64,000 bases of DNA. It comes from Chloropicon primus. Its lineage: Eukaryota. The notes below the pieces were generated by a model. The model was not told the DNA's origin and ran no database searches. It worked only from the letters and a program-made list of their open reading frames with translations. The stretch covers positions 930,001 to 994,000 of the forward strand of contig CP060758.1 in the NCBI GenBank assembly GCA_023205875.1, read 5' to 3'. Below, in pieces: positions 16,101 through 43,222 of this stretch. How positions within the stretch are numbered: the stretch's first letter is position 1; each line of letters starts with the position of its first letter. The position numbers and the translations under genes are program-made.

Positions 16101-19100
16101 GTGTCCCTGAGACGTGTTGACGTCGTTGATGGGGCAATCAAGAGCTCCATAAGCACCGAAGGTCTTCAGATGCACGCATTGGATTTCCTGTGCTTCTTGC
16201 TTCTGACATTCCTGGAAGTATTGGAGCTCATGAAAGATGTTGTCCTGACATGTAACTTCCATTCTGGGTTCCAAAGCGAGCATCTCAACTTGAGGCAATG
16301 ACGCGGTCCACGACATAGAGTATATTGTCTTTGTGACCGCAAGGCTTGTGCGGTCAACCTTCTTCTGGTCAATGGAGCGTGCCGACAATCCAGCAAGAGA
16401 CATCAGAGGGCCTGATCCAGACGTTTTAAAAGTGTAGTCCAGAGTGAAGGTATGGTTCACGGCACCGATGGAGGGCCTTTGAGTTGCTTCTACGGCGGTA
16501 TCTGCAGTGAAGGCATCACCATTCAAGAACAGCGCTTCAAACCCTGTTGGCACGCGTGATGACATTGAAACCTCCTCCAAGGATTGCACACATTGGCCCA
16601 GTTGTAGACCGCAGTCAAACATATGCGGATCAACTACGAACTTAGTTCGGTCGCTGAACGAAGATCGCACAAGGTTTGCCTGTAAAGACTCCGTTCTTTT
16701 TGACGACCCAATCTCGGATTGCATGGTAGTTGATTCCTTGATATTGATCTGTTGGACAGAAAAATGCACGACCTTGGAGTGTTTGGTCGAACTAGAAAGT
16801 GTGAGATCACCTTGATGAGAAACTTTTGTTTCTACATGTTGTCGGCTTCCTTGTACGATTTGGAGGGCTGCAGGGATAGTTCCAGCATTGTAACCAAAGG
16901 TCTCATTATTGGGATTTGCACTCTTTGCACTGGCTGCAACCACCTCAAGAAGACCAGTGAATGGCATGATGCATTTACCGTGCACAATGTGATCCAACAA
17001 TGTTTGCATACAAGGATGGGCAAGATCAGCAACAAAGGTGACATGATCAGGCGCTACAACAACCTTCCCCAGACTCAAAGATGTGAACGGTTTGAACTTG
17101 ATCAATGCTTGTTGTTGAATTTTGCGACCAATGACTCTCATCTCTGTATTCTGAGTTCCCTTGTGTATCGCAACATGTGAGTTTGTACCTTGGAACGCAA
17201 AAGAGCTTACACCAACAGAAATGCCATGGGTATGCTGGACATTTGAATACTCTCTTGGCATGTGCAACGCAAAAGACGCTGCATGTTGTCTGTCCCCAGA
17301 AGAAACCAGATTCGCAATATAGGGGTTAATCGATGTCAGGTGCAGAACAGGCCTAGAAGTATGCTTTGCTGCAACAGTAATTGCATTCAACAAACCGTTC
17401 ATGCCAGCAGCTGGTTCTGCATGTCCAACCCAAGACTTTGATGAGGATAAAGCAAGAGGAACAAAACTCGCCCTACTTTCAAAAACCTTCTTCAAAGCTC
17501 CCAATTCGATAGGATCGCCTAAGCTCGTACCAGTTCCATGCATTTCTATGCCACAGATATCCTCGGCAGATAGAGGACCATCTGCAAGACTACGACGGAC
17601 AACCTCTTGCTGTGAAGGACCATTGGGCGCAGTCAGCGTACTTGACCTGCCATCCTGATTAACAGAGGAACCAGCAATGACAATATGCCCCTCTTCGGAA
17701 CTGTTGCTTCCATCTACGAGAGGTTCTAACAGGAGCGTACCACATGATTCACCGCGCACGTAACCATCTGCTCTCGCATCAAGAGTCTTGCATCGTCCAT
17801 CTCGAGAGAGCATTTTCGCCATCGCCACATATAGTGTTGATGAACAATCAGACACGATATGAACACCTCCTGCAATGCTCTGGCAACTATACTCTTGAAC
17901 ATATTTCGAGGCCAAGGATGTAGCAACCAAACTTGAAGAACAAGCTGTATCCACAGCGAGAGAAGGTCCGCAAATACCCAGTGTGAACGAAATTCGACCA
18001 CAAGTCACACTCACACCCATACCAGTTGCATGGAATGGCGTTCCTTCGGAATGCTTCATCAACCCAATATTATGTCCTGTAGGAGCAACACCAACATACA
18101 CACCTGTATTCTTGCCCTGCATGTCACCAAAAGCAAAAGAATCATAACACATCTCAAGAAGCAAGTACTGCTGTGGATCCATGTAGGTTGCCTCGGCACT
18201 ACCAATCTGGAATGCTTCTCTGTCGAAATATTCGATATCTTCCATGAAAGAACCAAAGCGCGTTGTCAGCAAGCTACTATCAACAGTGTAAAGATCCTCA
18301 GCATCCCAACGGTTGTAAGGCACAACACGAATGCCATCTTTCCCTATCGAAGAAGTCTGCAATGCATGCTTTGGCTCAGAAAAATTGTAGTTGGAAATGA
18401 CACACGCAATATCAGATTGCGATCTAGGCACTAGTTCTTGATCTATCTTTGCCTCTTCTCTCATGCCTCCCAGCATTGTGATAACAAACTCAGATAGAGA
18501 ATGTACCGTTGGATAATCAAATATCAATGTGCCTGGTAGTTGCAGACCCAGCACACCCTCAAGGGTGTTCCTGAATTCGACCGCACCAAGAGAATCCAAA
18601 CCTGCATCCATCAATGGCTCGTGCAGACCAACATTCTTTCCAAGGACACTCTGTGTCACATCGAAAACGCTTTTCTCGACATCGTCTGGTCTCAAAGTTT
18701 TCATGTTGTTCCTAGACAAGTCACTTGTGTTGTGAACGCTTGAAGATGTCTGCACTTGGACTGACACCTCAGATTCGAATTCCGCAAAGAATGGTGAACG
18801 CACAGAAGGATTGGCAAGGAACTTGGACCAATCAAATGGGTTCACACACTGGATAGGAGAAAGCGATTCCATGCTCTGAGTGCATGTCGCAAACGTACTT
18901 GCAAGTGTCGACAAGGCTTGCAAGCCTATCGCAGGACTCACGGCATTCATTCCAGTACGCTCAAGCTTCTGAAGCACCTTTGCTGATGCCATTCCACCAC
19001 CAGACCACGCACCCCATTGAATGCTCGATGCTCCAACACCGGTATGTTGAAGACTCACAGATAAGCTGTCAAGGTATGCATTTGCTGCACTGTATCCGCC

Positions 19101-22100
19101 TTGGCCAGGTGAGCCCAAGAGAGATGCAACAGAAGAAAAGTAAAATATCTGCTGTAAAGGATATTCACCCATGCCTTCATGAAGACGATGAGCTGCATCT
19201 ACCTTTGATCCGTACACCAACCTCTGAGAACGGACGGTTTGGTTGGACAAAGAGGCATCAGACAAAACACCACCAGAGTGAATCAAGCCTGTGAAGTCTT
19301 CTCCGACCCTCTTGAGACCTGAAAGATCTTCCAAGCTCGATGCATCACACTTCAGCATGGTGACAAGACCTCTGATTCCAAGACCAAACGCAGACCTGTC
19401 GTGTAGTTGTGCGTTTCTACCTGAACGGCCCAACAGTGTGGCACTTGCACATCCAGATTTGCACAACCAACTTCCAACAAGTCTGCCTAGGGTTCCGAGA
19501 CCGCCTACGATGACGAATTTTTCAGAATTGAAGGTACTGTTGAAGTGCTGGAAATGCACTTTCGTTGGCTTTAGATGGGGATGGAAGGAAATTCCGTGAG
19601 AATTGCCACATTCCTGATGAATGATATCGGAGTGATGTGATTCTACGGTCAGTAAAACGGCATTGTGTTTTCCTCCAACTTCTTGCTTTGAAAAACTCGT
19701 TGACTTGAAATCAGTGTGCCTGATTTCCTGTGCTACAGTGCGCATCAGACCCCACAGGTGTCCCTGAGACGTGTTGACGTCGTTGATGGGGCAATCAAGA
19801 GCTCCATAAGCACCGAAGGTCTTCAGATGCACGCATTGGATTTCCTGTGCTTCTTGCTTCTGACATTCCTGGAAGTATTGGAGCTCATGAAAGATGTTGT
19901 CCTGACATGTAACTTCCATTCTGGGTTCCAAAGCGAGCATCTCAACTTGAGGCAATGACGCGGTCCACGACATAGAGTATATTGTCTTTGTGACCGCAAG
20001 GCTTGTGCGGTCAACCTTCTTCTGGTCAATGGAGCGTGCCGACAATCCAGCAAGAGACATCAGAGGGCCTGATCCAGACGTCTTAAAAGTGTAGTCCAGA
20101 GTGAAGGTATGGTTCACGGCACCGACGGAGGGCCTTTGAGTTGCTTCTACGGCGGTATCTGCAGTGAAGGCATCACCATTCAAGAACAGCGCTTCAAACC
20201 CTGTTGGCACGCGTGATGACATTGAAACCTCCTCCAAGGATTGCACACATTGGCCCAATTGTAGACCGCAGTCAAGCATCTCAACTGAAATGTTTGAATC
20301 AGTAGCGTAAAGCCCAGTTGTAATTGTCCCAACACTGTTAGGACCGATAGACTGCGGCTGCAAAGATTTATGCTTTTGATTTTCTTTGCTACTCTCGACT
20401 TCATGTACACGAGCGTGAGTAGCTTGCAAAACAACAATTTCATTGCTCAAGGAAGCTCTCTTCATCACTACCGAATCTTCTTCTAATGCAATTGTGATTG
20501 CCGTAGAATCACGCGGGTTGCGTTGATCGTGGGGGCATACCACAGAAGCATTACTAATTCCAACAGCTTCAGAGAATACCAACTTGGTTGCGTAGTACAT
20601 GGGAACAGCGTACACTCCCAAACTTGCGGTACTATGTGCAAAGCAACAACGAACCTCAAATTGTATCGGATGAGAGCTAGCCAACTTGAAGTCATTGAAT
20701 GGGTAAATGCTTTTGATGTGCCCGATGTTCGATATCCATTTGAAAGACAAATGGCGAATACTTGCGGTCAGGGTCACACAATGCCCACTAACACGTTCAG
20801 ACAAAACTGAATGGCCATTAGTTCCCTGAAACGCAAAAGAGCTTACACCAACAGAAATGCCATGGGTATGCTGGACATTTGAATACTCTCTTGGCATGTG
20901 CAACGCAAAAGACGCTGCATGTTGTCTGTCCCCAGAAGAAACCAGATTCGCAATATAGGGGTTAATCGATGTCAGGTGCAGAACAGGCCTAGAAGTATGC
21001 TTTGCTGCAACAGTAATTGCATTCAACAAACCGTTCATGCCAGCAGCTGGTTCTGCATGTCCAACCCAAGACTTTGATGAGGATAAAGCAAGAGGAACAA
21101 AACTCGCCCTACTTTCAAAAACCTTCTTCAAAGCTCCCAATTCGATAGGATCGCCTAAGCCCGTACCAGTTCCATGCATTTCTATGCCACAGATATCCTC
21201 GGCAGATAGAGGACCATCTGCAAGACTACGACGGACAACCTCTTGCTGTGAAGGACCATTGGGCGCAGTCAGCGTACTTGACCTGCCATCCTGATTAACA
21301 GAGGAACCAGCAATGACAATATGCCCCTCTTCGGAACTGTTGCTTCCATCTACGAGAGGTTCTAACAGGAGCGTACCACATGATTCACCGCGCACGTAAC
21401 CATCTGCTCTCGCATCAAGAGTCTTGCATCGTCCATCCCGAGCAAGCATACCAGATGATTCAAACATTAATGAAGTAGACTTCAAAATTGTAGTGTTCAC
21501 TCCTGAAACTGCTGACGATGATCCGACAGGTACCCTTATAACATTCTGCTTTGCAATACTAAGAGCAACCAAACTTGAAGAACAAGCTGTATCGATGGAA
21601 ACCGCAGGACCCTTCAAACCGAAAAAGTAAGAAACTCTTCCAGCTGCACAGCTCATCGCAATTCCAGTCGCAAGGAAAGGTGGAATCTTCGTGACCGATT
21701 TCAGCAACAGTGAATTGTAGTCCGAGCTCGAAATACCAACGAACACTCCAACATCACAGGATGCAAAGCCATTCCGATTTAAAACTATGGCATTCGAACC
21801 CAGCAGCAAGCAATGCTGTGGATCCATGTAGGTTGCCTCGGCACTACCAATCTGGAATGCTTCTCTGTCGAAATATTCGATATCTTCCATGAAAGAACCA
21901 AAGCGCGTTGTCAGCAAGCTACTATCAACAGTGTAAAGATCCTCAGCATCCCAACGGTTGTAAGGCACAACACGAATGCCATCTTTCCCTATCGAAGAAG
22001 TCTGCAATGCATGCTTTGGCTCAGAAAAATTGTAGTTGGAAATGACACACGCAATATCAGATTGCGATCTAGGCACTAGTTCTTGATCTATCTTTGCCTC

Positions 22101-25100
22101 TTCTCTCATGCCTCCCAGCATTGTGATAACAAACTCAGATAGAGAATGTACCGTTGGATAATCAAATATCAATGTGCCTGGTAGTTGCAGACCCAGCACA
22201 CCCTCAAGGGTGTTCCTGAATTCGACCGCACCAAGAGAATCCAAACCTGCATCCATCAATGGCTCGTGCAGACCAACATTCTTTCCAAGGACACTCTGTG
22301 TCACATCGAAAACGCTTTTCTCGACATCGTCTGGTCTCAAAGTTTTCATGTTGTTCCTAGACAAGTCACTTGTGTTGTGAACGCTTGAAGATGTCTGCAC
22401 TTGGACTGACACCTCAGATTCGAATTCCGCAAAGAATGGTGAACGCACAGAAGGATTGGCAAGGAACTTGGACCAATCAAATGGGTTCACACACTGGATA
22501 GGAGAAAGCGATTCCATGCTCTGAGTGCATGTCGCAAACGTACTTGCAAGTGTCGACAAGGCTTGCAAGCCTATCGCAGGACTCACGGCATTCATTCCAG
22601 TACGCTCAAGCTTCTGAAGCACCTTTGCTGATGCCATTCCACCACCAGACCACGCACCCCATTGAATGCTCGATGCTCCAACACCGGTATGTTGAAGACT
22701 CACAGATAAGCTGTCAAGGTATGCATTTGCTGCACTGTATCCGCCTTGGCCAGGTGAGCCCAAGAGAGATGCAACAGAAGAAAAGTAAAATATCTGCTGT
22801 AAAGGATATTCACCCATGCCTTCATGAAGACGATGAGCTGCATCTACCTTTGATCCGTACACCAACCTCTGAGAACGGACGGTTTGGTTGGATAAAGAGG
22901 CATCAGACAAAACACCACCAGAGTGAATCAAGCCTGTGAAGTCTTCTCCGACCCTCTTGAGACCTGAAAGATCTTCCAAGCTCGATGCATCACACTTCAG
23001 CATGGTGACAAGACCTCTGATTCCAAGACCAAACGCAGACCTGTCGTGTAGTTGTGCGTTTCTACCTGAACGGCCCAACAGTGTGGCACTTGCACATCCA
23101 GATTTGCACAACCAACTTCCAACAAGTCTCCCTAAGGAGCCCATACCTCCTGTAATCATCACCTTCGCATCACTAACGCTGTTCTCAAAAGTCAAGCTGT
23201 TGGTAAGCACAACTTTACCTACATGCTTGGCTTGGGACATTTGACGCAAGGCAGCATGTACGGAACCAAGACTGTGGATCACCTGAGGCAAAGGTCCAAT
23301 GCTGCCAGAAGCGAGGAAGCGAGCCGTTTGCAACATCATCTGCTGCATTCTGTGTGGCGGCAAGAAATCCACAGCAAGCAGCTCGTATGTCACATCCTGA
23401 CGCTCCATCCTCACAGACTGGCGTGACCAAATGTCACGCTTTCCAATCTCAACCATCCTACCTCCACTGCCCAAAGTGGACAAGGTTGCTCCTACCATAC
23501 CTGACGACGTCAAGGAGTTCAAAGCAATATCCACACCACCAGTGTAGGACACCAACTCTGGATACCGGGTATCTCTCGAGTTCACCACATGCTGAAGCCC
23601 CAACGACCTCAGCAAAGAGCGCTTGCGGCTACTTCCAGCCGTGGCCAAGGCGTTGGAACCACTGGCTTGGACAACCTGAAGAGCGGCAAGACCGACTCCT
23701 CCTGCTGCGGCGTGAATGAGGACATTGTCATTGCGCTGCATGCAAGACGCGTGGGAGAAGGCAATCTGCACTGTCACAAACACGGTGGGCACTGTGGCTG
23801 CGGCACTGAATCCAACATTACTGGGCAAGGGAACGAACAAATCAGAAAGTGCATTCACTTCCGTACCAAGACAACCCTCTGCGAGGCCAAACACTGACTG
23901 ACCAACACAGAAGCCGTCTGAACCCTTGGTCTCCACAACCACACCAGAGCAATCGCCTCCTGGCAAACCTGGGTCCCCGGGATACATGTCCAAAATATTG
24001 AGAACATCACGGAAATTCAGTCCAATGGCGTGTACCTGAAGGATCATATCCATGGTGGTTTTGGAGAGGGGCTCTAAGGCTTGCAGGGCCAAGCTACTGA
24101 AAGAACCTCGTGGACTTGGAACAAGCTGCATGTGAGCTTGCTTCAAGTGAGCTCTGCTGGCGATGAGAGTAGGCACCAAGACCATTCCCCCACGGAGAGC
24201 TTCTCCTTGAACATCTGATTCTGCACTTCTCATCAGCAGAGAGTCGACAATCAACGCATTCGCATTGGAACCAACGTTGATTGTGTCCTCGATAGATACG
24301 TCAACACCACCGCAGGTCAAATTCTGGCATTCCTGTGCTACAGTGCGCATCAGACCCCACAGGTGTCCCTGAGACGTGTTGACGTCGTTGGTGGGGCAAT
24401 CAAGAGCTCCATAAGCACCGAAGGTTTGAAGGTTCATAGGCATATGACCCTTGTTGATCAAATCACGCACAACGCTGAGGGCCAACCCCATCGAGCTGAT
24501 TTGAGAATCAGGTTCTAAAATAAGCATTGAATCGGTAGCAGAACCCAAAGGACTCGATGACTGAGCAAGACAAGCATTCCACTGCACAAAGTAGGTCGTG
24601 GATCTCTTTTCTTCAATGGATGCCTTGGAGACCGAGGTCCCTGAAGACATGCTCTTGGTCAACAAGTTGTACACAGTGCTTGAAGACAGGCCGTTTGGAT
24701 CTTGAAGGCTATGCTGGCTCATGCTCTTCTGAGCCGAACTAAACACAGTCTTTGCGACAGCATGCAAAACATTGGATTTGGTTCGCTGGTGCACAACAAA
24801 AGCGTCAATTCCAGCAGGAACTTGTGTTTGTTGATCCTCCCCTGATCCGTTATCGACCAAACTTGTAGCTCCAAGCTGGAGGCAACCATCCAGAGCGCTA
24901 GGGTGTGTATACATGCCATTCAAAGCACCACTCTCCTGGCCACCAATGTGAGCATACGCCTCACCCGACAGGTGTCCGTTGTGTCTTATGGCCTTCAGTA
25001 CTTGGAACTTGGTCATGTAGTTCAAACCAACTTGATGCATCGCATCGTAAAGAACGACCGATGGAATGGGTACAGCAGATTTTGCCCTCAAGTTTTCTTT

Positions 25101-28100
25101 GCTAAGAGACAATGAAGTCGATGCAATTTCTTCTGAAGGCTCGTCCACCGATTTGATCCAGCCCAAAGATGCCCTGAAATGAGCAGTACCAAAGCCCGTG
25201 CTGTTCCTCTTGGAAAGCGAGGAGATGTCGAACTTTGCATCGCCGAGCGTATGCACACTAATCTGAACCACAACATCATCCGCCTTGCCCATGGATTGAG
25301 GCAGTACAAGAGGGGCAGGAATGGCAGCCTGTTCCACAACAATAGATGCAATCGCACCATCTGTCATGAGATGTCCAAGTGCCGAACCCATCTCCAGGTA
25401 TCCCGCACCAGGGTACAAGGGTTTGTTTTGAATCTGGTGATCCCACAAGTAAGAATGCAAGGCCCTTGTCAACGTCGTCTCAAGCTTGACAACTCCATCG
25501 ACATCCACGCGAGCACACTTCGACAACAAGGGGTGCACAGGAGGCAAAACCCAGCACCTCTGTGGTCGCCAGCTCAGTACTGCATTCTCCTTGTTGAACA
25601 CTGAAAACGGGGTACAACCCAAAATGGCATGACTGTTCGTTCCTTGGAACGCAAACGAGCTTACACCGCCCACAAGGTCGGCATCTGCGACATTTTGAGA
25701 GATACCAAAGGACAACTTTGGCAAGTTGTACTTCGAGTTCTCGTTTGATCCAATGATTTGGTGCAAGTGAGGGTTCACGCTACTCAAGTGAATTATGGGC
25801 GTGCTCGCTGCGTTCATCAAAGCGTCCATGGTGTGGATGAGGCCGGCCGCACCTGCGCCTGGTTCAGTGTGACCAATGCTTGATTTACCTGCAGCCAAGT
25901 TCAGAGGGTGGTCTGCTACACGATTTCCCATCAACACGGCATTCAAAGCACCGACTTCAATAGGATCGCCAAGTGGCGTTCCAGTACCGTGCATTTGCAG
26001 CAGACTTACGTCTGCACCGTCTAAAGACTTGTGTTGCAATGCTGCTCTTACGACCATTTGCTGTGCAGGACCATTAGGAGCAGTCAACGCACTGGATCTT
26101 CCGTCTTGATTTACAGCTGTTCCTAGCACGGCAACGGGCAGGCTGTCGCTGGAATCTGCTGCTCCACTGCTGTCATCAGCACTTTCCAGGCAAAGGGCAC
26201 CGCAGAATTCTCCCCTCACATAGCCATCTGCTGAAGCATCAAGGGTCTTGCACCTTCCGTCTGCACTGAGCATACCTGCCTTATGGAACATCATTGTTGT
26301 ATCTGGTGTTTGAGTGAGATTGATCCCAAAGATACTTGCTCTTTTCATGCTGATGTTGGTGCTGAATGTAGAGGTTGCAATAGACAATGCTACAAGGGAC
26401 GAGGAACAAGCAGTGTCGATTGACATGGAAGGACCTGTCAATGCAAACATGAAAGATATCCTTCCTGAAGCAACACTAAGTGCGGATCCTGACGCGGAAA
26501 ATGGAGTGATTCGATTGCTGTATTTGTCCACCAATCGAGAATGATCAATACTGGATATTCCCACAAAGATACCTGTGTCCATATTGGTTCTTTCGTGCAG
26601 TAGTGAATTTGCACACTGAAGAAGTAACCTTTGCTGGGAGTCTATGAAAATAGACTCATTCTTCGATAGAGCAAACGCAGAATGATCGAACTCCTGAGAT
26701 CCACTGAGGAAACTACCAAAAGCTGGTAAGCCTTCAAATGTCGAAGATTCACACCATCTGTAGTACGGAACTCGAGAAAGGGCATCCTTTATGCAACCTG
26801 GACCTGAAGCAGGTACGTGATCCATTTTGTGATGAGCACAAATAGCAAGATTCAGATCTCGTGCCAAAGGTACTGACGTTTTGAGAGTTTCATCAACAGC
26901 CACAACTTCCTCAGTATTTACGAGAGATTGTATGTGTTCAACCAGAGAGGAAGGAGTAGGATAATCAAACGCAACAGTACCAGGGAGCTCTATCCCCAAG
27001 GTCTGCTCGAGTTGATTCCTCAGCTCGACTGACGAGAGCGAATCAAGTCCATTTTCCATAAATAGACCATCCTTCTCAATACTTCGACCCAAAATATTTT
27101 GAAGCGTCACACCTACAACCCTTTTAAGTTGTTCAATGTCAAAGTGACAGAGTGTGGTCGAGGGAACAGTGTCTCCCTTGATTGCATCTTCCAAAGTCTC
27201 TTTTCTGAAGTCATAGACACCTTCAAAGAAACACTCATTGTCATCATTCATATACGAGCCAAGGAATTTGTGCCAGTCAACATCTAGTGCAGCTATCGAA
27301 GAAGGTCTATGCTCAACACTTCTATTTGAATTCATGATGTACGTATTGAGAAGAACTCCTTTCATTGGATCTAGTCCAGAAAGGCCTATTTTCTCAAGCC
27401 TCCTCAAATTATCCTGATTTCTTGCTGCCATTCCCACCTCTGCCCAAGCACCCCATTGGATTGACGATGACTTGAGTCCACGTGAAGACAAATCTGATAA
27501 ATATGCATCCATGTACGCATTAGAAGCAGTATAAGAGCACTGGCCAGGAGATCCAAGCACCACAGAAAATGAAGAGAAAGCCACCTCAACGTCGACCGGA
27601 AGTCTTTCACAAGCATCATGGACATTTTGTATTCCAGAGGCCTTCGGGGCAAACACGCTCCGTGCCCTGTTCAAATCTGTTTTCAGAATTGAGCTGTCAA
27701 CCAAGATTCCACTTGCATGGATAACTGTCAATGGTGAAGAAGCAAGATGAATCTCCTCGAACGATGACACCTCGTCTTTGCTCGTAACATCAACTTTGGA
27801 AAGCATCAATGTGTTTCTGCCATAGCACAGATTCGTCAATTTCGAATCTTTACTTGCGCTTGAAGCTTTTCCTGAGCGCCCCGTAAGAATCAATTCGTTA
27901 AAGCACTCACTTTGCATGCACGATGAAACAAAGAGTCCCAAAGAGCCAAGTCCTCCAAACATCGCCAGGGACTTGCAAGAATCCAATACAGAGTGCGTCA
28001 CGGAATCCACTACAACTTTGCCGATTTGCTTTGATGAAGCTAATCCTTTCAGGGCTCTGACAACAGAATCCATACTGAAAGACGTAAAGGGAAGTGGCAC

Positions 28101-31100
28101 ACATTCACCCAAACCCAAAAACGCAGCAGCTCGTTCCAGATATCTCGAATTGATATGCTGCGGCAAGAAATCCACAGCAAGCAGCTCGTATGTCACATCC
28201 TGACGCTCCATCCTCACAGACTGGCGTGACCAAATGTCACGCTTTCCAATCTCAACCATCCTACCTCCACTGCCCAAAGTGGACAAGGTTGCTCCTACCA
28301 TACCTGACGACGTCAAGGAGTTCAAAGCAATATCCACACCACCAGTGTAGGACACCAACTCTGGATACCGGGTATCTCTCGAGTTCACCACATGCTGAAG
28401 CCCCAACGACCTCAGCAAAGAGCGCTTGCGGCTACTTCCAGCCGTGGCCAAGGCGTTGGAACCACTGGCTTGGACAACCTGAAGAGCGGCAAGACCGACT
28501 CCTCCTGCTGCGGCGTGAATGAGGACATTGTCATTGCGCTGCATGCAAGACGCGTGGGAGAAGGCAATCTGCACTGTCACAAACACGGTGGGCACTGTGG
28601 CTGCGGCACTGAATCCAACATTACTGGGCAAAACGGACAGTAAATTCTTTGAGGTCACTGCATGAGAAGCTAACGAACCAATTGCAAAGCCGAATACAGA
28701 TGTTCCTGGTGCAAAAGCACTGCAATCACCTGAATTGAACACTGTCCCTGAACAATCTGCGCCAGGCATTCCAGGCTCTCCGGGATACATGTCCAAAATG
28801 TTGAGAACATCACGGAAATTTAATCCCACGGACGCAATTCTTATCTCAACTTCCCCGCAACTTAAGGGTGTGGTTGATGGCGAATACTGCTTCAAAGCTA
28901 AGCTCGAGAAGGATCCTCTTGGCTGGGGAACAATCTGGAAGGCAGAGACCTTCATAGGATTGACTCTGTGAGAGTCTCTTAACCTGGTCATCTGTGAATG
29001 GTATTCTGTCGTTCCGTCCGTAGTCAGTATGCCTTGGCCCCAGTTGGAATAACCTCCAGGGGAGACAAACGTATCAGATTCTGGAATTGTTTGTGACACG
29101 TGGTAAATCTTGGAGCTGTAATTGCATTCCTGTGTGAATGACTTGACTGCACCCCATATAGCATGCTGTAAGCATCTTGAATCAAGACTCCCATTTTCTG
29201 CCACAATTTTGTTTGCATCAAAGACGGACTTCAATTTCAGATGATATCGATCAATCTTCAAAGTACTTTCCAGATCTTGCATCAAGCTGAATGACGTCCA
29301 CAGTCCTGGAACTCTGCTGTTTCTTTGAGGATTATCCAGATCGTGAACAACAGTAAAGTTATTCCTGTCACCGGTCTCAAAGGCGATAGAAGTCATTTCT
29401 TGCTTGCTCTCTACCAGTGTGTTCTGCACACATAACCACGAGACATGGTACATCGAATCAGTCTTCTCCACCTTCATTGTTGCCATTTGAGTTTTGGCTT
29501 TGACGGCATATCCAAGGATGGACTCGATACTCGCAACATTATCACCCGAGGCTGTAGTCAGATTCAAATCGTTTGAAGACCCTGCAACAATTTCGGGTGC
29601 CAATGATGCAGTAGCGTAAGTGCTACAGACATCACTGCATCTTGAACAAACGTAGACTTCTATGGACACTGGGATTTCCGAAGATGGCTCTTCACCCTTG
29701 TCGACCTTGGAGATGACATCTCTTCCTGCTATAACGTGCAATGCAGCGTCTAAGACAGCAGGATCGACCAAAAAGTCATTGCTATTGACGTTTGAGCCAA
29801 TCTTGCCCACTGCTGTTGAGTGGTCTCCAACCCAAAGAGTTTCCAAGAGTTTGAACGCATCTTTGTACTGCAAACCAAGGTTCGACAGCTTGTTGTACAG
29901 ATCAACAACATTGCAAGGCCTGTACACGGCTTGCCGCATGAGTTTCTCGCTTGCCAAGTCATTCTCCAAGGGCTCGATGACACTGTATGAGCCTGCAAAA
30001 TGTTCTTCCCTGTCCGATCTCGAACAAAACTCTCCAGATACGTTGTTTAGACAAAAAGTCAAAGGAGCAGATTCCATGTTCAACACCAGCGCAGACATGA
30101 AAGCAATCTTCGTTGCTACAACGTTTTGTGAAGTTCTTCTATCGGTGAGCGCAAAACATTCAGAAGCGCATTCCAGAAAGGCGGCTCCGGGCAAAATATG
30201 CATCCCTTGGACAATATGATCATGCAGAAAGCCCAACGACGGTGCTCCCAAGTTGATTTCAATCATGAGAGTAGCATCACCACCATGCTTCAATGATGTT
30301 GTGAAGGGTCCAACTGATTCTCCTATGCAATAGAAAGCCATTGTAAAGAGAGAGCTGGGATTGGTTCCTGTGCTGATGTTGTTTGGACCTTCTGCCATGC
30401 TCACAACCACATTTGCATTTGTTCCCTGAAATGCAAAGGAGCTCACAGACCCATGGGAGACGTGTGCAGCCAGTGACCTGTTCAGGACACGCTCTTCCCT
30501 TGGCACAGAGCTTTGCTTGAGTGCAGGCACGACGTACGGATTGACGGATTTGAGATGACCAAACGAAGCTGACCTGTGCATGGCTGCCTCACAAATGAGC
30601 TGAAACAAACCTGAAACACCTGCTGCAGCTTCAGTGTGGCCAATCTTTGACTTCACGGAACTCAGGTTCAAAGGATCATCAGTTTTCGTCTGGCGGTATA
30701 CTGTTGTGAGTGCATTTACTTCAATAGGATCTCCTAGCGGAGTTCCAGTTCCGTGCATCTCAGTAAAGAGTATCTCGCTTGGTAATATTCTCCCTTTTGA
30801 CACAGCCTCAGAGAGAACTTGCTGTTGAGCGACTCCACTAGGAGCAGTGAGAGAGCTTGACCGCCCATCTTGATTCACAACCGCAGATACTATATGGACT
30901 CCAGAAAATACGGATTCTTCGCCCTCGTCCAAATTGCGTCTAGACAGCAGCACGAGACCACAGGCATCACCCCTGACATAACCGTCTGCTGATTCATCGA
31001 GAGTTTTACACCTTCCATCTCGGGCAAGCATACCAGACTGGTGGAACATCAGCGTGACCTCAGGGGCCAGAATTATATTCACACCCCCTGAGATGGCAAA

Positions 31101-34100
31101 TCCATAACTCGAGAGAGCCATACACGATTCTGCGGCATGCATTGTCACAAGAGATGAAGAGCAAGCTGTATCGATTGACACTGAAGGCCCCGAGCACCCA
31201 AACAGATATGATAACCTTCCAGCAGCTGCGCTGTGTGCATTACCTGTGCCCATGTAGGCATCCACTCTTTGCAGCAACACCTTTGTCATTGCAAAATGAT
31301 CCATTTGCGATATTCCTACATAGCAACTACACTGTGACAGCATGTCGTCGCTCAAACCATTGAGTACATTCGTGGCGTGCTGAACAAGAATTCTGTGCTG
31401 GGGGTCCATCATACTCGCTTCTGTGGCGGACATGTTGTAGAGAAGCCTGTCGAAGTTGTACACATCTTTCATGAAGTTTCCAAACCTTGGGATGCTTCCG
31501 TATCTTTCCATCAATACCTCAGAATCCCATACGGCATATGGCACAGCAAAGATGGCATCGGAGGGTTCTACGAGAGCATCTATGTTGTCCACCATATTCT
31601 TATTTGCAGTTGCATATGAGTATGCAAGAGGAAGAGTAACGAAGTTGCCCCCATCTACAACTTGAAGATGCGCTAAACTGGTCACTTCAGCATCAACTGG
31701 CGCTGTCTCCGGAGAAGTTGCTAGAAGATGGTCTGAAAGTGATGAAATCGTGGGATGATCAAATGCAATGGTGGCAGATACATCAATGTCAAGAGAGTCC
31801 TGTAAACTTGTGGCAAGCGCAACAGCAGTTGAAGAGGTCAAGCCGAAATCCCACAGAGAGTCATCACTTGAAATGTTTGAAATGCCTAGACAATCCTCTA
31901 CAGTCTTGGATAGCACCTCCATCAAGCCCTTTCTCGCCGTTGAAGCAGCTAGTTGAGAGGTATGACCAGTCGTCTCCACAGGAGTCATTGCATTGCCAGA
32001 CGCTTCCTCTTTCTCAGTAGACTTTTCGCTAACAAAATTATAGATTTCGTCAACGGAGCTGTAGTCAAAAAGAAGAGTGGCAGGAACCTCAAACGACAAA
32101 GCACTCTCAAGATCAGTACTAACTTTCACTGCAAGCATGGAGGTCATACCAGCATCCCATACAGATTGCGAGGTGTCTTCAATGTTGACCGACTGAGAAA
32201 TGCAGTCAAGAAGAATGGTCTTCAAGATATCAGGACTTGCATGAGACTGCGAAACTGCAGGCATCTCAAGCTTCACGCTCAAGTCAGGCATTGACGCGAT
32301 CGACTCTAAAACAAACAAGCTCGACATGCCGAAATCATTCTCTGCTGAGTTGCCCACGACACAGCACACAAAAATGCCGTCGACATCATACTCTGCAAGA
32401 AGGTTGAGCGCCACGGCGAGATCCCCCTCGCTCTCGCATTCCACGAGAATGACGGCCTCCCCCTCCTCTGCTTCGACGCCACCATGCGAGACAACTTCCC
32501 ACAGGTCCTTGCAGTCCTTCAAGGAGAAAGTTGTGGCACTGCCTTCGCCCTTGGACGCAAGGTAATTCTTGCGCAACTCCGTCTTCAGGATCTTTCCTGA
32601 CCCCGTGGTGGGCATCTCGGACACGATCAAGATGCGGGAGGGAACCTTGTACGAGGACAAAGCTTTCTGGCAGTGCCTCACCAAGTCTCTCTCGCTTGCG
32701 GAGCTACCTGGCTGAATTCTCACCGCCGCGGTCACCATTTCGCCCATAACGCTGTTTGGCACGCCAAAGACTGCTGCTTGCATGACAGAGGGGTGCTCCA
32801 TCAAAGCAGCCTCGACTTCGACACAGTACACGTTCTCTCCCCCGCACAGAATCATGTCCTTGCACCTGTCGATCACAGTGATGTATCCAGAGCCATTCAC
32901 CGTGGCCAGGTCTCCCGTGCGGAACCATCCGTCACGGAAAGCCTCCTTGTTGGCCTCTGGGTTGTTGGCGTACCCATCAAACACGGTGGGTCCCCTGCAC
33001 AGCACCTCTCCAACTTCGCCACTGTCCGGCTTGGCCTCGGTGCCAGCGTCCGTGACCACCTTCACATCCATAAGAGAAAACGGCCTTCCCGAGGTGCAGA
33101 TGAGGTCCAACAGGCTCTGCACGTCGAGGCTGCGCAGCTCCTCCTCGGACAGGATCGACATGGAGATCTTCCCGCAGCATTCGGTCATTCCGTAGGACAG
33201 GAAGAACTCGCACCCAAACGTCCCAATCGCCTTCTTCACGGTCGCCGGAACGAGCGGGGACCCTCCGCAGGAGAGAATTCTCAGCGTGGTGAAGTCCAGC
33301 GCCTGGCACCAAGGGCTGCTCACCATCAGGGTGACCATGGTGGAAGCAACGTTGCTTATGGTCACGCCCTCCCTCTCCATCGTCTGCATCGTCCTCACCG
33401 AGTCAAAGCTTTCCAGCATCACGTGGGTGCCCTGCACGTGCGTCACCGAGTATATTGCGAAGGCGTCCACCAGGTGGAACATGGGCGCGAAGTGCCCCCA
33501 CACGTCACTCTTGTTGATCCTCATGGCATCGATCGCCCCGCCAGAGTGCTTGCAGACTATGCCCATGCTCAGAATGACGCGCTTCGGCTTCCCCGTCGTT
33601 CCGCTCGTGTAGTACACCTGGTACGGACTGGCCAGACCAAGATCAACCTTGTTTCCGAAGAAGATTCCCCTGAGATCTCCACCGCCAAAGGCGTCCTCGT
33701 ACTTTCTGCACGACACCTCGTCGTCGAGCAAGGCGCGAGGAACGCCCCCGGGGCCCGACCTCACGACAAGAAGCAGCTTCACACTGGACTCCTGGCCGGC
33801 CTCCCTCATGGCGTCCACCGCACGGTCAAGAAGATCTTGATGCACAATCACCGTCGACGGCAAGGAGTCTCCAAGGATGTACGCCAGCTCGTGAGCGACG
33901 AGGCGGGTGTTCAGATTCACGACGCTCGCCCCCAACCACGCCGCCGCAAAGTGAACCTCAATGGTTTCGTGGATGTTGGGGAGCAGCACGCCAACGCTCG
34001 ACCCTTGACCCACTCCGTGGCCCTGGAGGAAGGAACCTAGCTCGCTGCACCTGCCGTGGAGCTCCTGGTAGGTGAACTTGGAGCTGCCGTCGACCACCGC

Positions 34101-37100
34101 CACCTTGTCCGGCACCTCCAGCGCCGCCGAGACCAAGGAATTCCATGGATGGTCCACTTGTGTGGCTTGGGGCATGATGTGTATTTTGCTTGGCCTGTGA
34201 CTTTCTTTCCGGGACGCAAGTTTCAAGTCCAAGACAGTGTCCTCCCAGGGCATGTAAGCCAAGGTCTCCAGCACTCGCACCAGCATAACTTTTGTTTTCT
34301 GTGCCGTCTTTCTCGTGAAAGCGTGCGCGTCATATGTCAGCATTCCAACGAGGGACCCGTTAGACGCTTTTCCAAGTGCAAGCCAATAATCAAATGCAGA
34401 CTCGGGCATCGGAAGGGAAAAGTTGTCGTAGTTCTGAGACAAGAAACTGAAGCAGGTCGTAAACAAGGGATTGCTTCCCGCAATCGTTCGTTTGGGCTGC
34501 AACCTCTTCAGCAAGCTCAGCCACGGAACATCGGGATGGTCAAAGGAGTCCAACGTCCTCGTCATCAGAAGTCTCAAGAATTCCACAATGGATTGACTGT
34601 TCGTAATTTGGGCTCTGACAGGGAGGATGCTGGAAAAGCACCCGATGGACGAGCCTATTTGTGACAACTGGGTGCTCTTGGATCTCAAGTCGAAGGGTGT
34701 ACCAAGCGTGATGTCATCAACATCGTTCGCCATCATATGCAACGTGAGAAACCACGCTCCGAAGACTGCATTGAACAATGTCAGATTCTGACGGGAAGCC
34801 TGTTTGAGAAGCCTCTGCGTGAGGTCTACAGAAACACCAATTTGAATGCTTCCAGCCGCCGTGTGCAGGGAGAGCTGCCTCTTGAAATCACACTCCAGGT
34901 TCAAGATCTCGAATTTTCCTCTTCGATCTTCTGTGAGGTAATTGTACCAGTGATCAAGGTTCTGTTTGGCATCATCCGGATCCACCTCGTTCCTACGTAA
35001 TGTTGACTCTATGAACAAGAGATCGCTTTCGCCTCCACCTCCTGACGTTGGAGGATCAGGCCGCTTCTGCAATCTCTCCAGGTACTCGGTTTTGACATCT
35101 TCCGCAATGATCCCCATGGATCTCCAATCTGCAACAATGTGGTGCGTTATGAACAGAACATTGTTTCCGTGAACGTGAATCCTCGTGATCGGACCTCGCA
35201 CGAGGTCGAAGGGGTGACTCATGGCCTCACTGAATCCCTTCTCCTCCTCGTACACGACGAGGTCAACCAATTCGCTGCTCGGCTTCACTCGGAAGTGCGA
35301 ACCGTCTGAAGAAAACACCACTCTGAGGATAGGGTGCTTTCTAAGGACGGACATGTATGCAGAGCGCAGAATGTCCACGTCGATGGAAGTATCCAGGCTG
35401 ATTACGCAATTCATGTTGTAGCAACTTGAGTGCGGTTTGAGCGTGAAGTGTGTCCAAAACACGAGCTGCTCCTCCGTAAGAGGCCATTCAGTGTGCACGA
35501 GAATACTTTGCAGCACCTTCTGTGCCTGCGCGTCCTCTTCCTTTGGCTTCCTTGGGGCAGCTGTCTCAGCCGTCAGAGCAATTCCTGGCTGGACATCGTG
35601 TGATTGGACACTCTTGACTCCTCCACCAATGAACTTGCTTATGTCGTCAATGGAGGGGTAATCAAAGATCAGGGTATTCGGAATCTGCAAACCAAAGTCA
35701 GAAGTCAGCCTGTTCTGCAATTCCATACCGCCCAAGGAATCTATGCCCATTTCGATCAAGGACTTGTCCTCTTCAACGTCGTCGTCCAGAATCTGAGCGA
35801 CAATTTTCGATACTCGCTTCTTAATGCTTTCGAGCAGAGTCGCGGACTCCGCGATGGCGTGGGCAGGTGTTGATGCCGCTGCATTGTCATCGTTGACCCG
35901 GAGGACTTCCCTCTGAAACATAGCACCGACTTTGCTGACCTCCAATGGCGACGCAAGGATCTGGCTCTTCCCCGACAGCCACAACTTCTGCCTCACGAAG
36001 ACCTCGTTCAGAACTCGGAGTCCCTCTTGAGTTGGAAGAGTCCCCAAACCCTGGCGGTGCAACCGCTGCAAGACTTGCTTGTCCCTTGCCGCCATCCCCA
36101 AGTCTCTCCAGCCTCCCCACTGGATGCTCGTGGAAGGGACTCCGGACATCCTCAAGCTGTCGCACAGGAGATCCATGAAAGAATTCGCTGCAGAGTAATT
36201 GGCTTGGCCAGCTGTTGGAACCACTGACGCAATCGATGAGAAGCACACCAGCGACGTAATGGGCTGCAATGGAAGTGATACCAACCTCTGCAACCCTTCC
36301 ACCTTTGGTTGGAAGCAGCTTCGACTGCTTGACACAGTCTGCGACCTGAGCAGACCGTCAAAGAGACCCCCGGCAGCATGGACCACGCTCCTGATATCCG
36401 AGAAGGCGAACGGATGTGCAACATCTTCGGAGAAGGACACGTCGCAGAGCGAAGCCGTGTACGAGCACAAATCAGGCAACCTCCGAGAAGGCAACGTTCT
36501 GCCGACAAGGACCACGGACTTCCCTTGCCTGGATTGGTACCACCTGGCAGAGCAAAGACCAATATCCCCCATCCCGCCCGTAAACAGGCAGCTACCTCTG
36601 ACTTCGTGATCTGCACCAAGGGTGTTGGTTGCTAGGCGGTCGGACAGGATAGAAGAGTAGAGCACGTTCGATCTGCACGAGGATCCCAGCACACTGGTTC
36701 CCCCGAATTTTGCGGTGGAGGTTGAGTACACGTCCTGGTCCAAGGCCTCCAAAGTCGTTTGGGGATACTCCTTGAACATTGTTCGGAGCATGGACCAGTG
36801 GAAGACGCCATCACCTCCCCATCCCTTCTTCGCGTTTGTGACGCCACCCTTCGAAGATGGCAGCACGCTGAAGGTCTCAAGGCGCAGGCTCGTGCTCAGA
36901 TTCGTGCTCGCGATTCGAGTCGCGATGCTCAGAACGGCGAGATAAGTCCACAAAGGGGCGGCGCCCGCCTTGCTGTGGAACGTGTGCGCACTCCCAACGG
37001 TGAGATTGGCACTTCTGGAATCAAATGGAACAGAAGGCTCACTCGCACTAGGACCGAAGGCAAGATGACGGATTGTGTACATCATCTTGCTTTTCCTGGA

Positions 37101-40100
37101 CTTGCTCCTCAGTGCATCTCTGGAGCCAATTTCTTTCAGCAGCAGTCCAGTAGCCAGCAAGACCTGTGCGCCACCTCTTCTGATGTTGTGATCATGGCAC
37201 TCGTTGTCGCCAGTCGAATAAACCCTGTTGTGGCCCGAATAATAAACCCCAGCTTTCTTGCTCCCGAAACTCAAATAATCTGTGGCCACAGGGACCTTCA
37301 CACCCCACTTGCCTTTGCTGGTCATCTTGCAGGCCGCGTTGAAATGGATCGCGGCATCAGATATCGCGGGATGCATGTTGAAATAGTCCTCCGGCTCGCC
37401 CTCGTAGCTGATGGAACACAGTGGACTGCAGCTTGGGTCGGGAGATATCCTGGCCGAGCATGTTTGAGCATTCTCTGGTCGGTCGGTGACCTGCAACTCT
37501 TTCCTCGCGTACGCAGTACAGTGGACGTTGTTGTGGCTCGAGATGGTGACGTAGCCATTTCCGTCCACGCGAGTGGAGAGCAGTGTCTCAAATTCAAAAC
37601 CGGTGTGCTGAGGAAGGAGGCAGGGCAGCATAATTGACAAATCTTGCACTCCCATAGGACTCTTCGTGCCTTGCCTCGTGTTCTGAGACGTGAGCAGAGA
37701 CGAGAACGCCATCTCAAAGAACCCAGAGCCTGGAAACAGGCACCTGTTGAAAACCTTGTGGTCCCACAGAAAGGGCTGCCTCTCCACGGAGAAGCACACT
37801 TCGATCTGGTGTCCAGGCTCACCAGAGCTGGCCCCAAAGGACAGGAAAGGATGAGCGATCGGCAGGCTCCACAAATACGTGCTTTCCAGCAAGTGGAATC
37901 TCGCCTTGCTGCTTTTCCACACCACGCCATCGCTGACGGCGTCAGAAGTGAACGAAGCGTGGGCATTCGTTCCCTGGAAAGCGAACGAACTGACGTGGTG
38001 AGTCTTCCCGTGCCCCTGATAGACGTTGCACGCCTCCCTCGAGGACAGAACCGAATTCTTGTGCTGCTTCAATGTAGCGACCACATGAGCATTCATCTCC
38101 CTCAGGTGACACATTCCTCTAAAGTTGTTCAAGTCTTGACAGAGGGCCAGGACGCCCACGGCCCCGGCCGCGGGCTCGGCGTGCCCAACATTCGATTTCA
38201 CAGAGGACAAGGAGATGCAGGCATCTCCTGCACTCGAGCTGAACGCCGAAAGAGCTGCTCCAACCTCTATTGGATCGCCGAGAGCGGTTCCCGTTCCGTG
38301 CATTTGAAGGACAGCGGCGTCCTCGGGCAAGCTGCCTCCCCTGGCCATCACCTGCCTGATAATGTCCTGCTGAGAGGGGCCGTTCGGGGCCGTGAGGGAG
38401 CTCGATCTCCCGTCCTGATTCACCGACGAAGCCTTCGCAACTATGGTGTGCCCCCCGGACTCGTCGCTGTGCAGGGCAAAGGCGAGAGCGGCTTCGGCTC
38501 TGACGTAGCCATCCGCGGAAGCATCCAGAGTTTTGCACCGCCCTTCCGAGGACAGCATTCCAGCAAGTGAGCATGACTCCGTCCACTCCCTGGCGAGCGT
38601 GAGGTTCGCACCGCAGAAGAGGGAGCTCTCAGAACTCCCTGGTGACATCGCGATGTGCTCCCTGGCCACGTGCATACCCACGAGAGATGAGGAGCACGCC
38701 GTGTCTATTGTGAGCGAGGGCCCCGTCATGCCAAATGTGTAAGAGAGTCGCCCGGAAGTCACACTGAGGTGCCCACTCGTCGCGGAGAACGTGCCCAAAC
38801 CGTTGTGGGCCACGTTCATGCGAGAGTATTCCAGCATTGATATTCCCACGAACACTCCCGAATTCGTCGACAACGGTGCTGGAGACTCGGTCATGACCAC
38901 GGCCGTGGTCTCCAGCAGCATCCTCTGCTGGGGATCCATGAACCTGGCCTCGTTCGATGCAATTCTGAAAGCTTGGCAATCGAAATCTTCGATGGAGCTC
39001 AGGAAGGACCCGAAGTTTGCGCCGACCTTCTTGCTGAGCTGGTCCCTCCAATCCCACCTCGACAGAGGCACGGTGCTGATCGAGTCGAAGTTGCCTTCCG
39101 TGTTGCTGCAGGGCATCTTGCTGTCACAGCACGTGACGAAAACCGTTGTGGTCGCATCACCTTGGATTCCAGAGGCTGGAAGGGCGTCCAACTCGCCCCC
39201 CGCGAGAGGACCCACCTGATCCGCTGCGTCGCATTCGGAGATGTAGCCCAGCAACAGGTTCAACGTGGGGTAATCAAACGTCGCTGTCGCGGACAGCTCG
39301 ACGTCCACCTCCTCCTTGATCTCTTCCATCAGTTGGACGGCAGTAGAAGAATTCAACCCTGCATCCGTGAAGGGCTGATCCGGCTCCAAGGCAAAATCGA
39401 AAAAGGACTGAATAATGTGCTTCACGGAATCCAACTTTGCGTCCGTGCCCTCCGAGTGGTGTCCTGGCGCTTGCTGTGTGCCGCACAGCGCGACCAAGTT
39501 CTCAGAGATGCTGGAAATGTTGCCGTAGTCAAACACCAGGGTGGAAGGCAAGGACACGCTCAGCTTCTCGCCGAGCCTGTTCGACAGCTCAATCGCGGTG
39601 GCCGAGGTCATCCCGTTCTCCATCAGAGGATCCCCCTCCCCCACGGAGGCTCCTGTCAACTCTGCGACAATATCTGAGACCAGCGTCTTCCAGGACTCTG
39701 GCTCTGACTTCGGCTCGACCTCTCCCGCAGGTGCACAGCCCGCAATCACGAGCGACAGCAAGAACCAGTCGCTGAATTCCACGCTGGACACATGGACAAT
39801 CACAACCTGGCCCAACAAGGCGTCCAGCAGTCTCATCGTCTCCGCCTGGACTGCGTCCCCCTTGTACACAATGACTGTGCTTCGGTCTTCCTCGTGCTCT
39901 GCAAGGAGGTTGAGCGCCACGGCGAGATCCCCCTCGCTCTCGCATTCCACGAGAATGACGGCCTCCCCCTCCTCTGCTTCGACGCCACCATGCGAGACAA
40001 CTTCCCACAGGTCCTTGCAGTCCTTCAAGGAGAAAGTTGTGGCACTGCCTTCGCCCTTGGACGCAAGGTAATTCTTGCGCAACTCCGTCTTCAGGATCTT

Positions 40101-42720: not shown

Positions 42721-43087
42721 AGGGAAGGGAAGTGTCTTCATCCGTTACTCTGCGTCAGAGTGCAATATGATTAATCCTTCTAATCTTCATCGGAATACAC
42801 TCCAAGATTCCATCTTGCTCTTGTTCCTCTTCTTCCTCTTGTCTCAATTCGAATTGAGACGCGGCCCCCTGCCTGGCGGAGTGAAACAACAGCTGGAAGG
42901 ATGGAGGAAGGTCTCCTTGCCTTGTGACGAACGGCGGGACGATGGAGCGATCGAACCAAGGGGAAGAACGAACGCGCGATGGACGGACACGTGTCCCGAG
43001 GCACCTCCCTCGGTGAATCATGTGTGAATCGTCGGTGAATTATCGGAGAAGAGACGGAGCACAAACCGAAGACGAAAAGCCAGGAAG

Positions 43088-43222
43088 ATGTGGACAAGGA
43101 AGCGAGTCCTCCTCGTCTTGGCCGCACTCTGCCTGGCGGGGAGGCTCGCGGGGGCGCAGGACGGTACGTGCCAGGACGAACCTTCGCTCTTCTTTCCGAT
43201 CTGCGTGATATCACTCTGACAC

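What the first reader, a model, noticed from the sequence alone, without database searches (positions are those of the whole stretch)
31720..41663. The same CoA-ligase-type loading cassette is used twice, the second time behind a condensation domain
Seen: A-ACP-ACP-KS occurs at the N-terminus and again internally as C-A-ACP-ACP-KS. The two A domains are near-identical over ~1.77 kb, while the paired ACPs are diverged paralogs. The A domain has acyl-CoA-synthetase signatures (APMFHLVDAF, YGMTE, GGENV) rather than the NRPS FDxS motif, yet it partners a C domain with intact HHIVAD. Inference: one bifunctional block X (an amino- or hydroxy-acid) is loaded and extended once to an enoyl (KS-DH-KR). 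It is then joined by amide/ester to a second X, and the chain is elongated by reducing modules. I do not recognise this assembly logic from characterised systems; it is the strongest candidate for an undescribed biosynthetic system here.
Basis: partly seen in the sequence, partly recalled or inferred. Interest (0 to 1): 0.88.

Follow-up and report, generated by a model that had tools for sequence, protein, structure and literature searches.

The report
Algal PKS reuses one starter loader
A giant polyketide synthase of a tiny marine green alga carries two identical starter-loading enzymes, one at its start and one behind a bond-forming domain, and likely joins a short chain to a second copy of the same, still unknown, probably hydroxylated starter before building a long lipid tail.

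Summary
Real and conserved. The ORF (at least 13,887 aa, Chloropicon primus-type trans-AT PKS) reads A-ACP-ACP-KS-DH-KR-ACP-C-A-ACP-ACP-KS, then at least six more mostly fully reducing modules. The two A domains share 1,766 nt with one mismatch. A public C. primus protein holds both copies. A distant relative (L001, 40-49% identical) has the same order, and its contig starts on a 97% copy of its own A tail. KS1 and KS2 group by position, A domains by species, and A2 is a high-GC3 island: an old layout in which A2 is likely overwritten from A1 again and again. Only A is duplicated, not the cassette. The parts are in print: N-terminal ligase loaders (uncharacterised) and an internal C-A-ACP2-KS in Micromonas; C-catalysed ester fusion is known from BurF. 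The same loader at both places was not found in my searches. The substrate is not determined. An invariant pocket lysine, no NRPS aspartate, a HHxxxDW C motif and A-KR or TPP-A-KR fusions in relatives point to a small hydroxy acid and an ester link (about 50%); an amide or an off-line C acceptor remain open. New variant of a known kind.

The parts
3..41663 (-). Giant trans-AT PKS/NRPS-hybrid ORF, at least 13,887 aa, 8 KS, open at the window edge (release domain not in the window)
40065..41663 (-). A1: acyl-CoA/acyl-ACP-ligase-type loader (LC-FACS/AasS/DmdB-like), P-loop, YGMTE and catalytic Lys522 present; pocket D231, F233, K330
39897..41662 (-). Homogenised tract, copy 1 (1,766 nt; likely donor)
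39495..39695 (-). Loader ACP 1a (GMTS)
39234..39431 (-). Loader ACP 1b (GLNS)
38019..39056 (-). KS1 (DTACS, HGTGT, GH intact); groups with other N-terminal-loader KSs
37224..37856 (-). DH1 (His and Asp present)
36099..36596 (-). KR1 (YSAAN); no ER in this module, so an enoyl product is predicted
35628..35828 (-). Module-1 ACP (GIDS), predicted donor for C
34203..35492 (-). Condensation domain, HHIVADW (Gly replaced by Trp, same in L001)
32559..34157 (-). A2: identical to A1; GC3 0.78 between 0.62 and 0.44
32391..34156 (-). Homogenised tract, copy 2 (likely recipient)
32028..32228 (-). Loader ACP 2a (GMTS)
31725..31925 (-). Loader ACP 2b (GLTS)
30504..31571 (-). KS2; groups with L001 KS2 and, more weakly, with the KS behind another C-A-ACP2 cassette
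26931..30296 (-). DH-ER-KR-ACP of module 2 (fully reducing)
3..26900 (-). Modules 3-8: fully reducing except module 4 (KS-KR-ACP, about 18,400-22,100; a hydroxyl is predicted); modules 6-8 are near-identical 4,836-bp repeats

Best explanation
This giant trans-AT PKS carries the same ligase-type loader twice, kept identical likely by repeated gene conversion from A1 to A2, and is predicted to load one small starter, likely a hydroxy acid, at both places and to esterify the once-extended first copy onto the second before elongating it into a long, mostly saturated chain. Shown: domain order, identity of A1 and A2, intact catalytic motifs, the same order in a distant relative. Inferred: (1) A1 adenylates acid X and loads ACP1a/b; (2) KS1-DH-KR adds one malonyl unit from a trans AT and gives an enoyl on ACP1c; (3) A2 loads the same X on ACP2a/b; (4) C transfers the enoyl chain onto a hydroxyl of that X; (5) KS2 and at least six more modules extend the ester-capped chain, module 4 leaving one mid-chain hydroxyl. 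The product would be a two-unit ester lipid; its release and role are unknown.
For: Same order A-tail-ACP2-KS-DH-KR-ACP2-C(HHIVADW)-A-ACP2-KS-DH-ER-KR in L001 at 40-49% identity, with no ER found in module 1 there either. L001's first 78 nt are 97.4% identical to the tail of its own A2; P0045 joins an A 96% identical to L001 A2 to L001-type ACP1 and KS1. KS tree: KS1s 95/95, KS2s 98/92 by position; A tree: by species. GC3 of A2 is an island in both organisms (0.78 between 0.62 and 0.44; 0.86 between 0.69 and 0.56). ACPs right after this A clade carry T, N or S before the serine in 60 of 60 caught, ACPs in KS modules D in 16 of 16; both window pairs are of the loader type. C stands directly before this A in L001, P0001, the P0051 cluster and L091, and C-A-ACP2-KS is listed for MicPKS2 and MccPKS5. 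Pocket: Lys at the position where LC-FACS has Val and AasS Ile, in 143 of 143 proteins caught by the clade motif, Tyr or Phe in 32 of 32 stand-alone bacterial relatives. 17 of the 65 best long hits have a KR between A and the first KS, 13 with a canonical Tyr motif; many are fused to a TPP enzyme whose best solved match is BbmA: in these relatives the loaded unit likely carries a carbonyl that is reduced to a hydroxyl. Changed HHxxxDG motifs are enriched where the acceptor is small (PMC8097023, passages).
Against: No substrate was tested or modelled; the structure call gave no coordinates to inspect. The window's own cassettes have no KR or TPP domain, and my test for a KR remnant behind A had no power (its own control scored -2.1 bits). 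The C domain's best solved matches are amide-forming (Txo1, fuscachelin; E 3e-21, 3e-20), and SgcC5-type 4znm scores only 1e-6. Only three full or near-full double arrangements were seen (window, P0275 of the same species, L001, in which A1 itself is cut off). Identity of A1 and A2 may be a by-product of the repeat-prone gene (modules 7 and 8 differ at 2 of 4,836 nt), not of selection. In mupirocin the in vitro data favour extension before esterification (PMC10098928, passages), the reverse of the order proposed here.
Confidence: 0.5

Rival explanations
1. X has no nucleophile. The two loaders start two separate chains, and C transfers the short enoyl chain to another acceptor: the mid-chain hydroxyl left by module 4, the released long chain, or a free alcohol or amine.
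For: The A domain's nearest solved relatives are fatty-acyl ligases (LC-FACS 1ult, AasS, feruloyl-CoA synthetase). Module 4 lacks DH and ER. In Stigmatella the same A clade is followed by ACP and a PapA-like acyltransferase.
Against: C sits directly before A-ACP2-KS in several lineages, some with different downstream modules. The module-4 ACP lies about 5,500 residues from C. A Lys in the acyl tunnel does not suit plain alkyl chains.
Confidence: 0.2
2. X is a beta- or omega-amino acid (or an amino acid with an anionic group) and C forms an amide.
For: The C domain resembles amide-forming LCL-type domains most. An invariant Asp lies near the pocket.
Against: That Asp is shared with stand-alone bacterial CoA ligases and aligns with the N/H of V-N/H-A-W; the PheA Asp235 position is Leu; the added pocket residue is Lys. 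A-KR and TPP-A-KR fusions point to carbonyl or hydroxyl chemistry.
Confidence: 0.18
3. C is inactive or only structural: A2 restarts the line and the first module is a leftover or feeds a separate small product.
For: MicPKS2 has a deviant HHIVCE motif (PMC4661987); Gly of the motif is replaced by Trp here.
Against: HHIVADW, the whole C domain (40%) and module 1 are kept in L001 although A, KS and C have drifted to 40-49% identity.
Confidence: 0.09
4. The duplication is an assembly artefact.
For: The gene is full of near-identical repeats. P0001 (C-A followed by ACP1/KS1-type domains) looks like a short-read jump across the A repeat. Raw reads could not be checked.
Against: C. primus QDZ21473.1 (P0275) has both copies, differs from the window at 2 of its first 3,180 residues, one of them in A2 alone. 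L001 has the same order. The flanks of both copies are unique and in frame.
Confidence: 0.03

Closest known systems
Chlorophyte trans-AT PKSs with an N-terminal ligase (CrePKS1, VcaPKS1, CvaPKS1; PMC4661987 Table S2; PMC7073580)
   Same: Ligase-ACPn-KS start, no AT, long run of fully reducing modules with one KS-KR-ACP module; loader of the same clade in Chlorella, Picochlorum and Ostreobium proteins. Starter unknown there too.
   Different: One loader only and no C domain in the listed architectures.
Micromonas MccPKS5 and MicPKS2 (PMC4661987 Table S2)
   Same: KS-ACP-C-A-ACP2-KS inside, or C?-A?-PCP2-KS at the start, of a prasinophyte trans-AT PKS.
   Different: No second loader is listed in those gene models (MccPKS5 starts at an ACP and may be incomplete). 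I did not have their sequences, so that their A is of this clade is inferred from the unnamed P0051 cluster (HHIVCD, A 39%).
BurF of malleicyprol (PMC12304814, abstract)
   Same: A non-canonical C domain of a PKS-NRPS hybrid joins two thioester-bound chains through an ester.
   Different: Two different chains, then reductive release and ring closure; here the same loader twice and further elongation by at least seven modules.
Mupirocin/thiomarinol hydroxy-fatty-acid arm (MupQ/MupS/MacpD; PMC10098928, passages)
   Same: An adenylating enzyme, a reductase and an ACP make a 3-hydroxypropionyl or 4-hydroxybutyryl starter that is extended to a saturated omega-hydroxy chain and esterified to a polyketide acid.
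   Different: Separate proteins, no C domain, extension likely before esterification; MupQ was not compared by sequence.
TPP-A-KR-ACP starts (Karenia brevis contig 34829, PMC5725682; Diplonema, Effrenium, Stigmatella proteins)
   Same: In the proteins I held, the same A clade and pocket motif.
   Different: TPP enzyme and KR fused to the loader; single copy; uncharacterised. The Karenia sequence itself was not examined.

Membership tests
Chlorophyte multimodular trans-AT PKS (CrePKS1 type) | Multimodular, no integrated AT | tested here: met
   8 KS; no AT in Pfam scans of 9000-41663; 3-9000 not scanned, it repeats module 6
Chlorophyte multimodular trans-AT PKS (CrePKS1 type) | N-terminal ligase followed by tandem ACPs and KS | tested here: met
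   KS1 falls with other post-loader KSs at 91/82
Chlorophyte multimodular trans-AT PKS (CrePKS1 type) | KS-ACP-KS-ACP-TE end | not testable with these tools
   ORF runs off the window; no genome held
Canonical NRPS elongation module (C-A-T) | A domain with Asp at the PheA 235 position | tested here: not met
   Leu at that column against FDASVWE rows in the same alignment; best families are acyl-CoA ligases, all below their cut-offs
Canonical NRPS elongation module (C-A-T) | C domain with HHxxxDG | tested here: inconclusive
   PF00668 E 5.5e-39; HHIVADW keeps His and Asp, Gly is Trp; activity untested
BurF-type thiotemplated chain fusion | C domain between a PKS module and an A-loaded carrier | tested here: met
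BurF-type thiotemplated chain fusion | Ester formation by C | not testable with these tools
   needs assay
BurF-type thiotemplated chain fusion | Reductive release directly after the fusion | tested here: not met
   KS2 and further modules follow
MupQ/MupS/MacpD priming cassette | Reductase acting with the adenylating enzyme and its ACP | tested here: not met
   No KR between A and ACP in the window; present in 17 of 65 relatives
MupQ/MupS/MacpD priming cassette | Sequence kinship to MupQ/TmlQ | not tested
   No MupQ sequence obtained; the 15 plasmid hits listed of 879 did not include one
FAAL loading module | FAAL-specific insertion | not tested
   No FAAL among the listed best matches; insertion not examined

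The most novel reading that the evidence does not exclude
The ligase-type loader shared by algal, diplonemid, dinoflagellate and myxobacterial megasynthases is a dedicated hydroxy-acid primer, and this enzyme is a templated oligoester synthase: it uses that primer twice, with gene conversion locking both loaders to one substrate, to make an ester-capped omega-hydroxy very-long-chain lipid. The one-loader relatives such as Chlamydomonas PKS1 would then make the omega-hydroxy monomers of algaenan-type walls.
Probability: 0.22. Interest if true: 0.85.

Novelty: new variant of a known kind. Interest (0 to 1): 0.62.

Why it matters
The starter of the N-terminal ligase of algal giant PKSs is an open question: none had been characterised as of 2023 (PMC10366177), and the Chlamydomonas enzyme is needed for the zygote wall (PMC7073580). 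Because the identical domain also sits behind an intact C domain here, its substrate most likely carries a nucleophile. This narrows the candidates and gives a small four-part assay (A, ACP1c, C, ACP2) for the whole family. It is also a clear natural case of one domain kept identical inside a megasynthase while its neighbours diverge.

Tried and rejected
Whole genome: none held. Read check of the assembly: not available. HMMER search of the C domain over 1.84 billion representatives: machine busy on 7 tries, so the spread of this C clade is known only (1,823-5,000 aa; after the C. primus protein only bacterial NRPSs at up to 29%; it missed the known relatives P0051 and L001, so it is not evidence of rarity). 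ESM Atlas: unreachable. TPP-A protein P0023 in 401 genomes of the phylum of G002: 0 of 401 at 1e-200 under a stricter first look, no positive control, so uninformative; no gene neighbourhood obtained. Metagenome scan with generic motifs: 79 loci, mostly distant ligases; only L081, L083, L088, L091 examined. Of 80 genome loci only L001 was read. KR-remnant profile: no power. AlphaFold model (pLDDT 89) and Foldseek confirm the ANL fold only. Earlier findings of this scan: none. Rejected: Asp231 as an amino-group binder; whole-cassette duplication; neighbouring genes as a biosynthetic cluster (housekeeping genes). BbmA paper not found: its function as an alpha-hydroxy-beta-keto acid synthase is recalled.

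Full report
What is there. One stop-free frame on the minus strand runs from the ATG at 41663 to the window edge, 13,887 aa. Pfam on 13 pieces covering 9000-41663 gives A-ACP-ACP-KS-DH-KR-ACP-C-A-ACP-ACP, then KS-DH-ER-KR-ACP twice, KS-KR-ACP, and further fully reducing modules; no AT was found. Eight KS domains carry DTACS and HGTGT. The two A copies match over 1,766 nt with one silent mismatch; the tract starts at the second base of the start codon and ends about 55 residues behind A. The four loader ACPs are 23-30% identical to one another and KS1 and KS2 40%. So the loader is duplicated, not the cassette.

Organism and artefact. The C domain is 100% identical to Chloropicon primus QDZ21473.1 (P0275). 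That protein holds both A copies and differs from the window at 2 of its first 3,180 residues, one in A2 alone; after that its gene model skips 178 residues and ends. The 2019 genome paper lists these genes only as 'polyketide synthase' (PMC6731263, passages and Supplementary Data 3). By my inference from the EukProt number the gene is A3770_05p39910, RNA-seq depth 3.05. Raw reads were not checked.

Conservation. L001, a 14.56-kb contig filed under a marine bacterial MAG but likely algal (my inference from its best matches), is one open frame with ACP-ACP-KS-DH-KR-ACP-ACP-C-A-ACP-ACP-KS-DH-ER-KR-ACP-KS; identity to the window is 49% for A, 40% for C, 48% for KS1; its C motif is also HHIVADW. 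Its first 78 nt are 97.4% identical to the tail of its own internal A, as expected if the contig broke at a near-identical A1. P0045 links an A that is 96% identical to L001 A2 with L001-type ACP1 (82%) and KS1 (92%); it could itself be a jump across the repeat. P0001 has C-A followed by KS1-type domains, which is such a jump or an extra unit. Among the 143 clade proteins held, two full copies are seen only in P0275; most proteins held are fragments.

Concerted evolution. In a tree of 24 KS domains, window KS1 groups with L001, P0045 and P0001 KS1 (95/95) and window KS2 with L001 KS2 (98/92); the KS behind the C-A-ACP2 cassette of P0254 joins KS2 at 87/86 on a long branch. In a tree of 31 A domains the copies group by organism; the deep forks are open. 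GC at third codon positions falls along the gene, and A2 is an island with the A1 value: 0.78 between 0.62 and 0.44 in the window, 0.86 between 0.69 and 0.56 in L001. The layout is therefore older than the split of the two lineages and A2 is likely overwritten from A1. This need not be selected for: modules 7 and 8 differ at 2 of 4,836 nt. Whatever the cause, identical domains should take the same substrate.

The loader. It scores best with acyl-CoA ligase families, all below cut-off; nearest solved relatives are LC-FACS 1ult, feruloyl-CoA synthetase and acyl-ACP synthetase AasS. It belongs to a clade marked by PMFHLVD and YGMTECCGKISMS found in Chlorella, Picochlorum, Ostreobium, pelagophytes, diplonemids, a dinoflagellate and Stigmatella. 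The Asp is shared with stand-alone bacterial ligases (32 of 32 caught) and aligns with V-N/H-A-W, so it is not an amino-acid code; the clade's own mark is Lys330 where those ligases have Tyr or Phe, LC-FACS Val and AasS Ile (the counts include close duplicates, and the clade motif itself allows only K or H there). That this column lines the acyl pocket (PheA position 331) follows from the alignment and recalled structures. ACPs right after this A have T, N or S before the serine (60 of 60 caught), ACPs in KS modules D (16 of 16); both window pairs are loader-type. Of the 65 best long hits, 17 have a KR between A and the first KS (13 with a canonical Tyr motif), 31 go from A to KS without one and 17 show neither. 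Many carry an N-terminal TPP enzyme, whose best solved match is BbmA (E 3e-45; function recalled). A KR before any KS implies a loaded unit with a reducible carbonyl, hence a hydroxy acyl starter in those relatives. The window lacks that KR, so it would take a ready-made hydroxy acid; this step is inference.

The C domain. PF00668 E 5.5e-39; best solved matches are amide-forming domains, at E 1e-20. His and Asp are kept; Gly is Trp in both lineages. Changed motifs are enriched for small acceptors (PMC8097023, passages). C stands directly before this A clade in L001, P0001, the P0051 cluster and the intron-split L091.

Mechanism. Most likely (0.5): X loaded by A1, extended once to an enoyl, esterified by C onto a second X loaded by A2, then extended by at least seven modules to a saturated chain with one hydroxyl. 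Rivals: off-line acceptor for C (0.2), amide with an amino acid (0.18), inactive C (0.09), artefact (0.03). Product, release domain and role are unknown. A link to wall polymers is a guess: algaenan is described as ester-linked C30-C34 omega-hydroxy fatty acids (PMC10762512, passages), and I found no statement that Chloropicon has it.

What is known. Shelest 2015 (PMC4661987; parts 1-3 of 7 and Table S2 read) lists ligase-ACPn-KS starts for CrePKS1 and others, KS-ACP-C-A-ACP2-KS inside MccPKS5 and C?-A?-PCP2-KS in MicPKS2; no row has two loaders. O'Neill 2020 (passages) says the starter cannot be predicted; a 2023 paper (PMC10366177, passages) says no such domain is characterised. tpp-A-KR-PP-KS was noted in Karenia (PMC5725682, passages). 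C-catalysed ester fusion of two chains is shown for BurF (PMC12304814, abstract); hydroxyacyl priming for mupirocin (PMC10098928, passages). Searches for the double loader found nothing ('Chloropicon', 'polyketide', 'adenylation': 0 papers), in an open-access library only.

Verdict. A real, conserved and testable variant of a known but uncharacterised family: new variant of a known kind, interest 0.62.

Noticed in passing
window 1-14500: Modules 6-8 are tandem 4,836-bp repeats (2 mismatches between the last two); the number of copies, and so the chain length, may be unsure in the assembly.
   Followed up: partly
window 13800-28500: Patchwork of 99-100% identical tracts among modules 2-6 (ER, KR-ACP, KS halves), a sign of frequent gene conversion across the gene.
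   Followed up: no
window 1-41663: GC falls from about 0.59 at the 5' end to 0.45-0.50 downstream, against about 0.60 in neighbouring genes; low-GC PKS regions are noted in PMC6731263.
   Followed up: partly
window 41690-42230 (-): Two likely 5' UTR introns (GTGAG or GTAAG ... CTGAC ... AG) upstream of the start codon; no N-terminal extension, so a cytosolic enzyme is likely.
   Followed up: no
window 43039-47730 (+): Proline-rich, CARDB-containing, likely secreted or membrane protein(s) divergently next to the PKS.
   Followed up: no
window 56068-57168 (-): Stand-alone zinc-binding-dehydrogenase-family (MDR) oxidoreductase; an enoyl-reductase-like fold, link to the PKS unknown.
   Followed up: no
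L001 1-14560: An algal-type PKS contig sits in a GTDB MAG named 'bacterium TMED88'; likely eukaryotic contamination of the bin.
   Followed up: partly
P0023, P0017, P0050, P0270: A doubled TPP enzyme (two PYR domains, one with the catalytic Glu, one GDG motif in P0023) fused to this loader clade in Stigmatella, diplonemids and dinoflagellates: an uncharacterised starter-making unit shared across bacteria and protists.
   Followed up: partly
P0051/P0254 cluster: An acyltransferase-like segment (GQSQG) stands before C-A-ACP2-KS, suggesting acylation of the loaded starter at the very start of another algal PKS.
   Followed up: no
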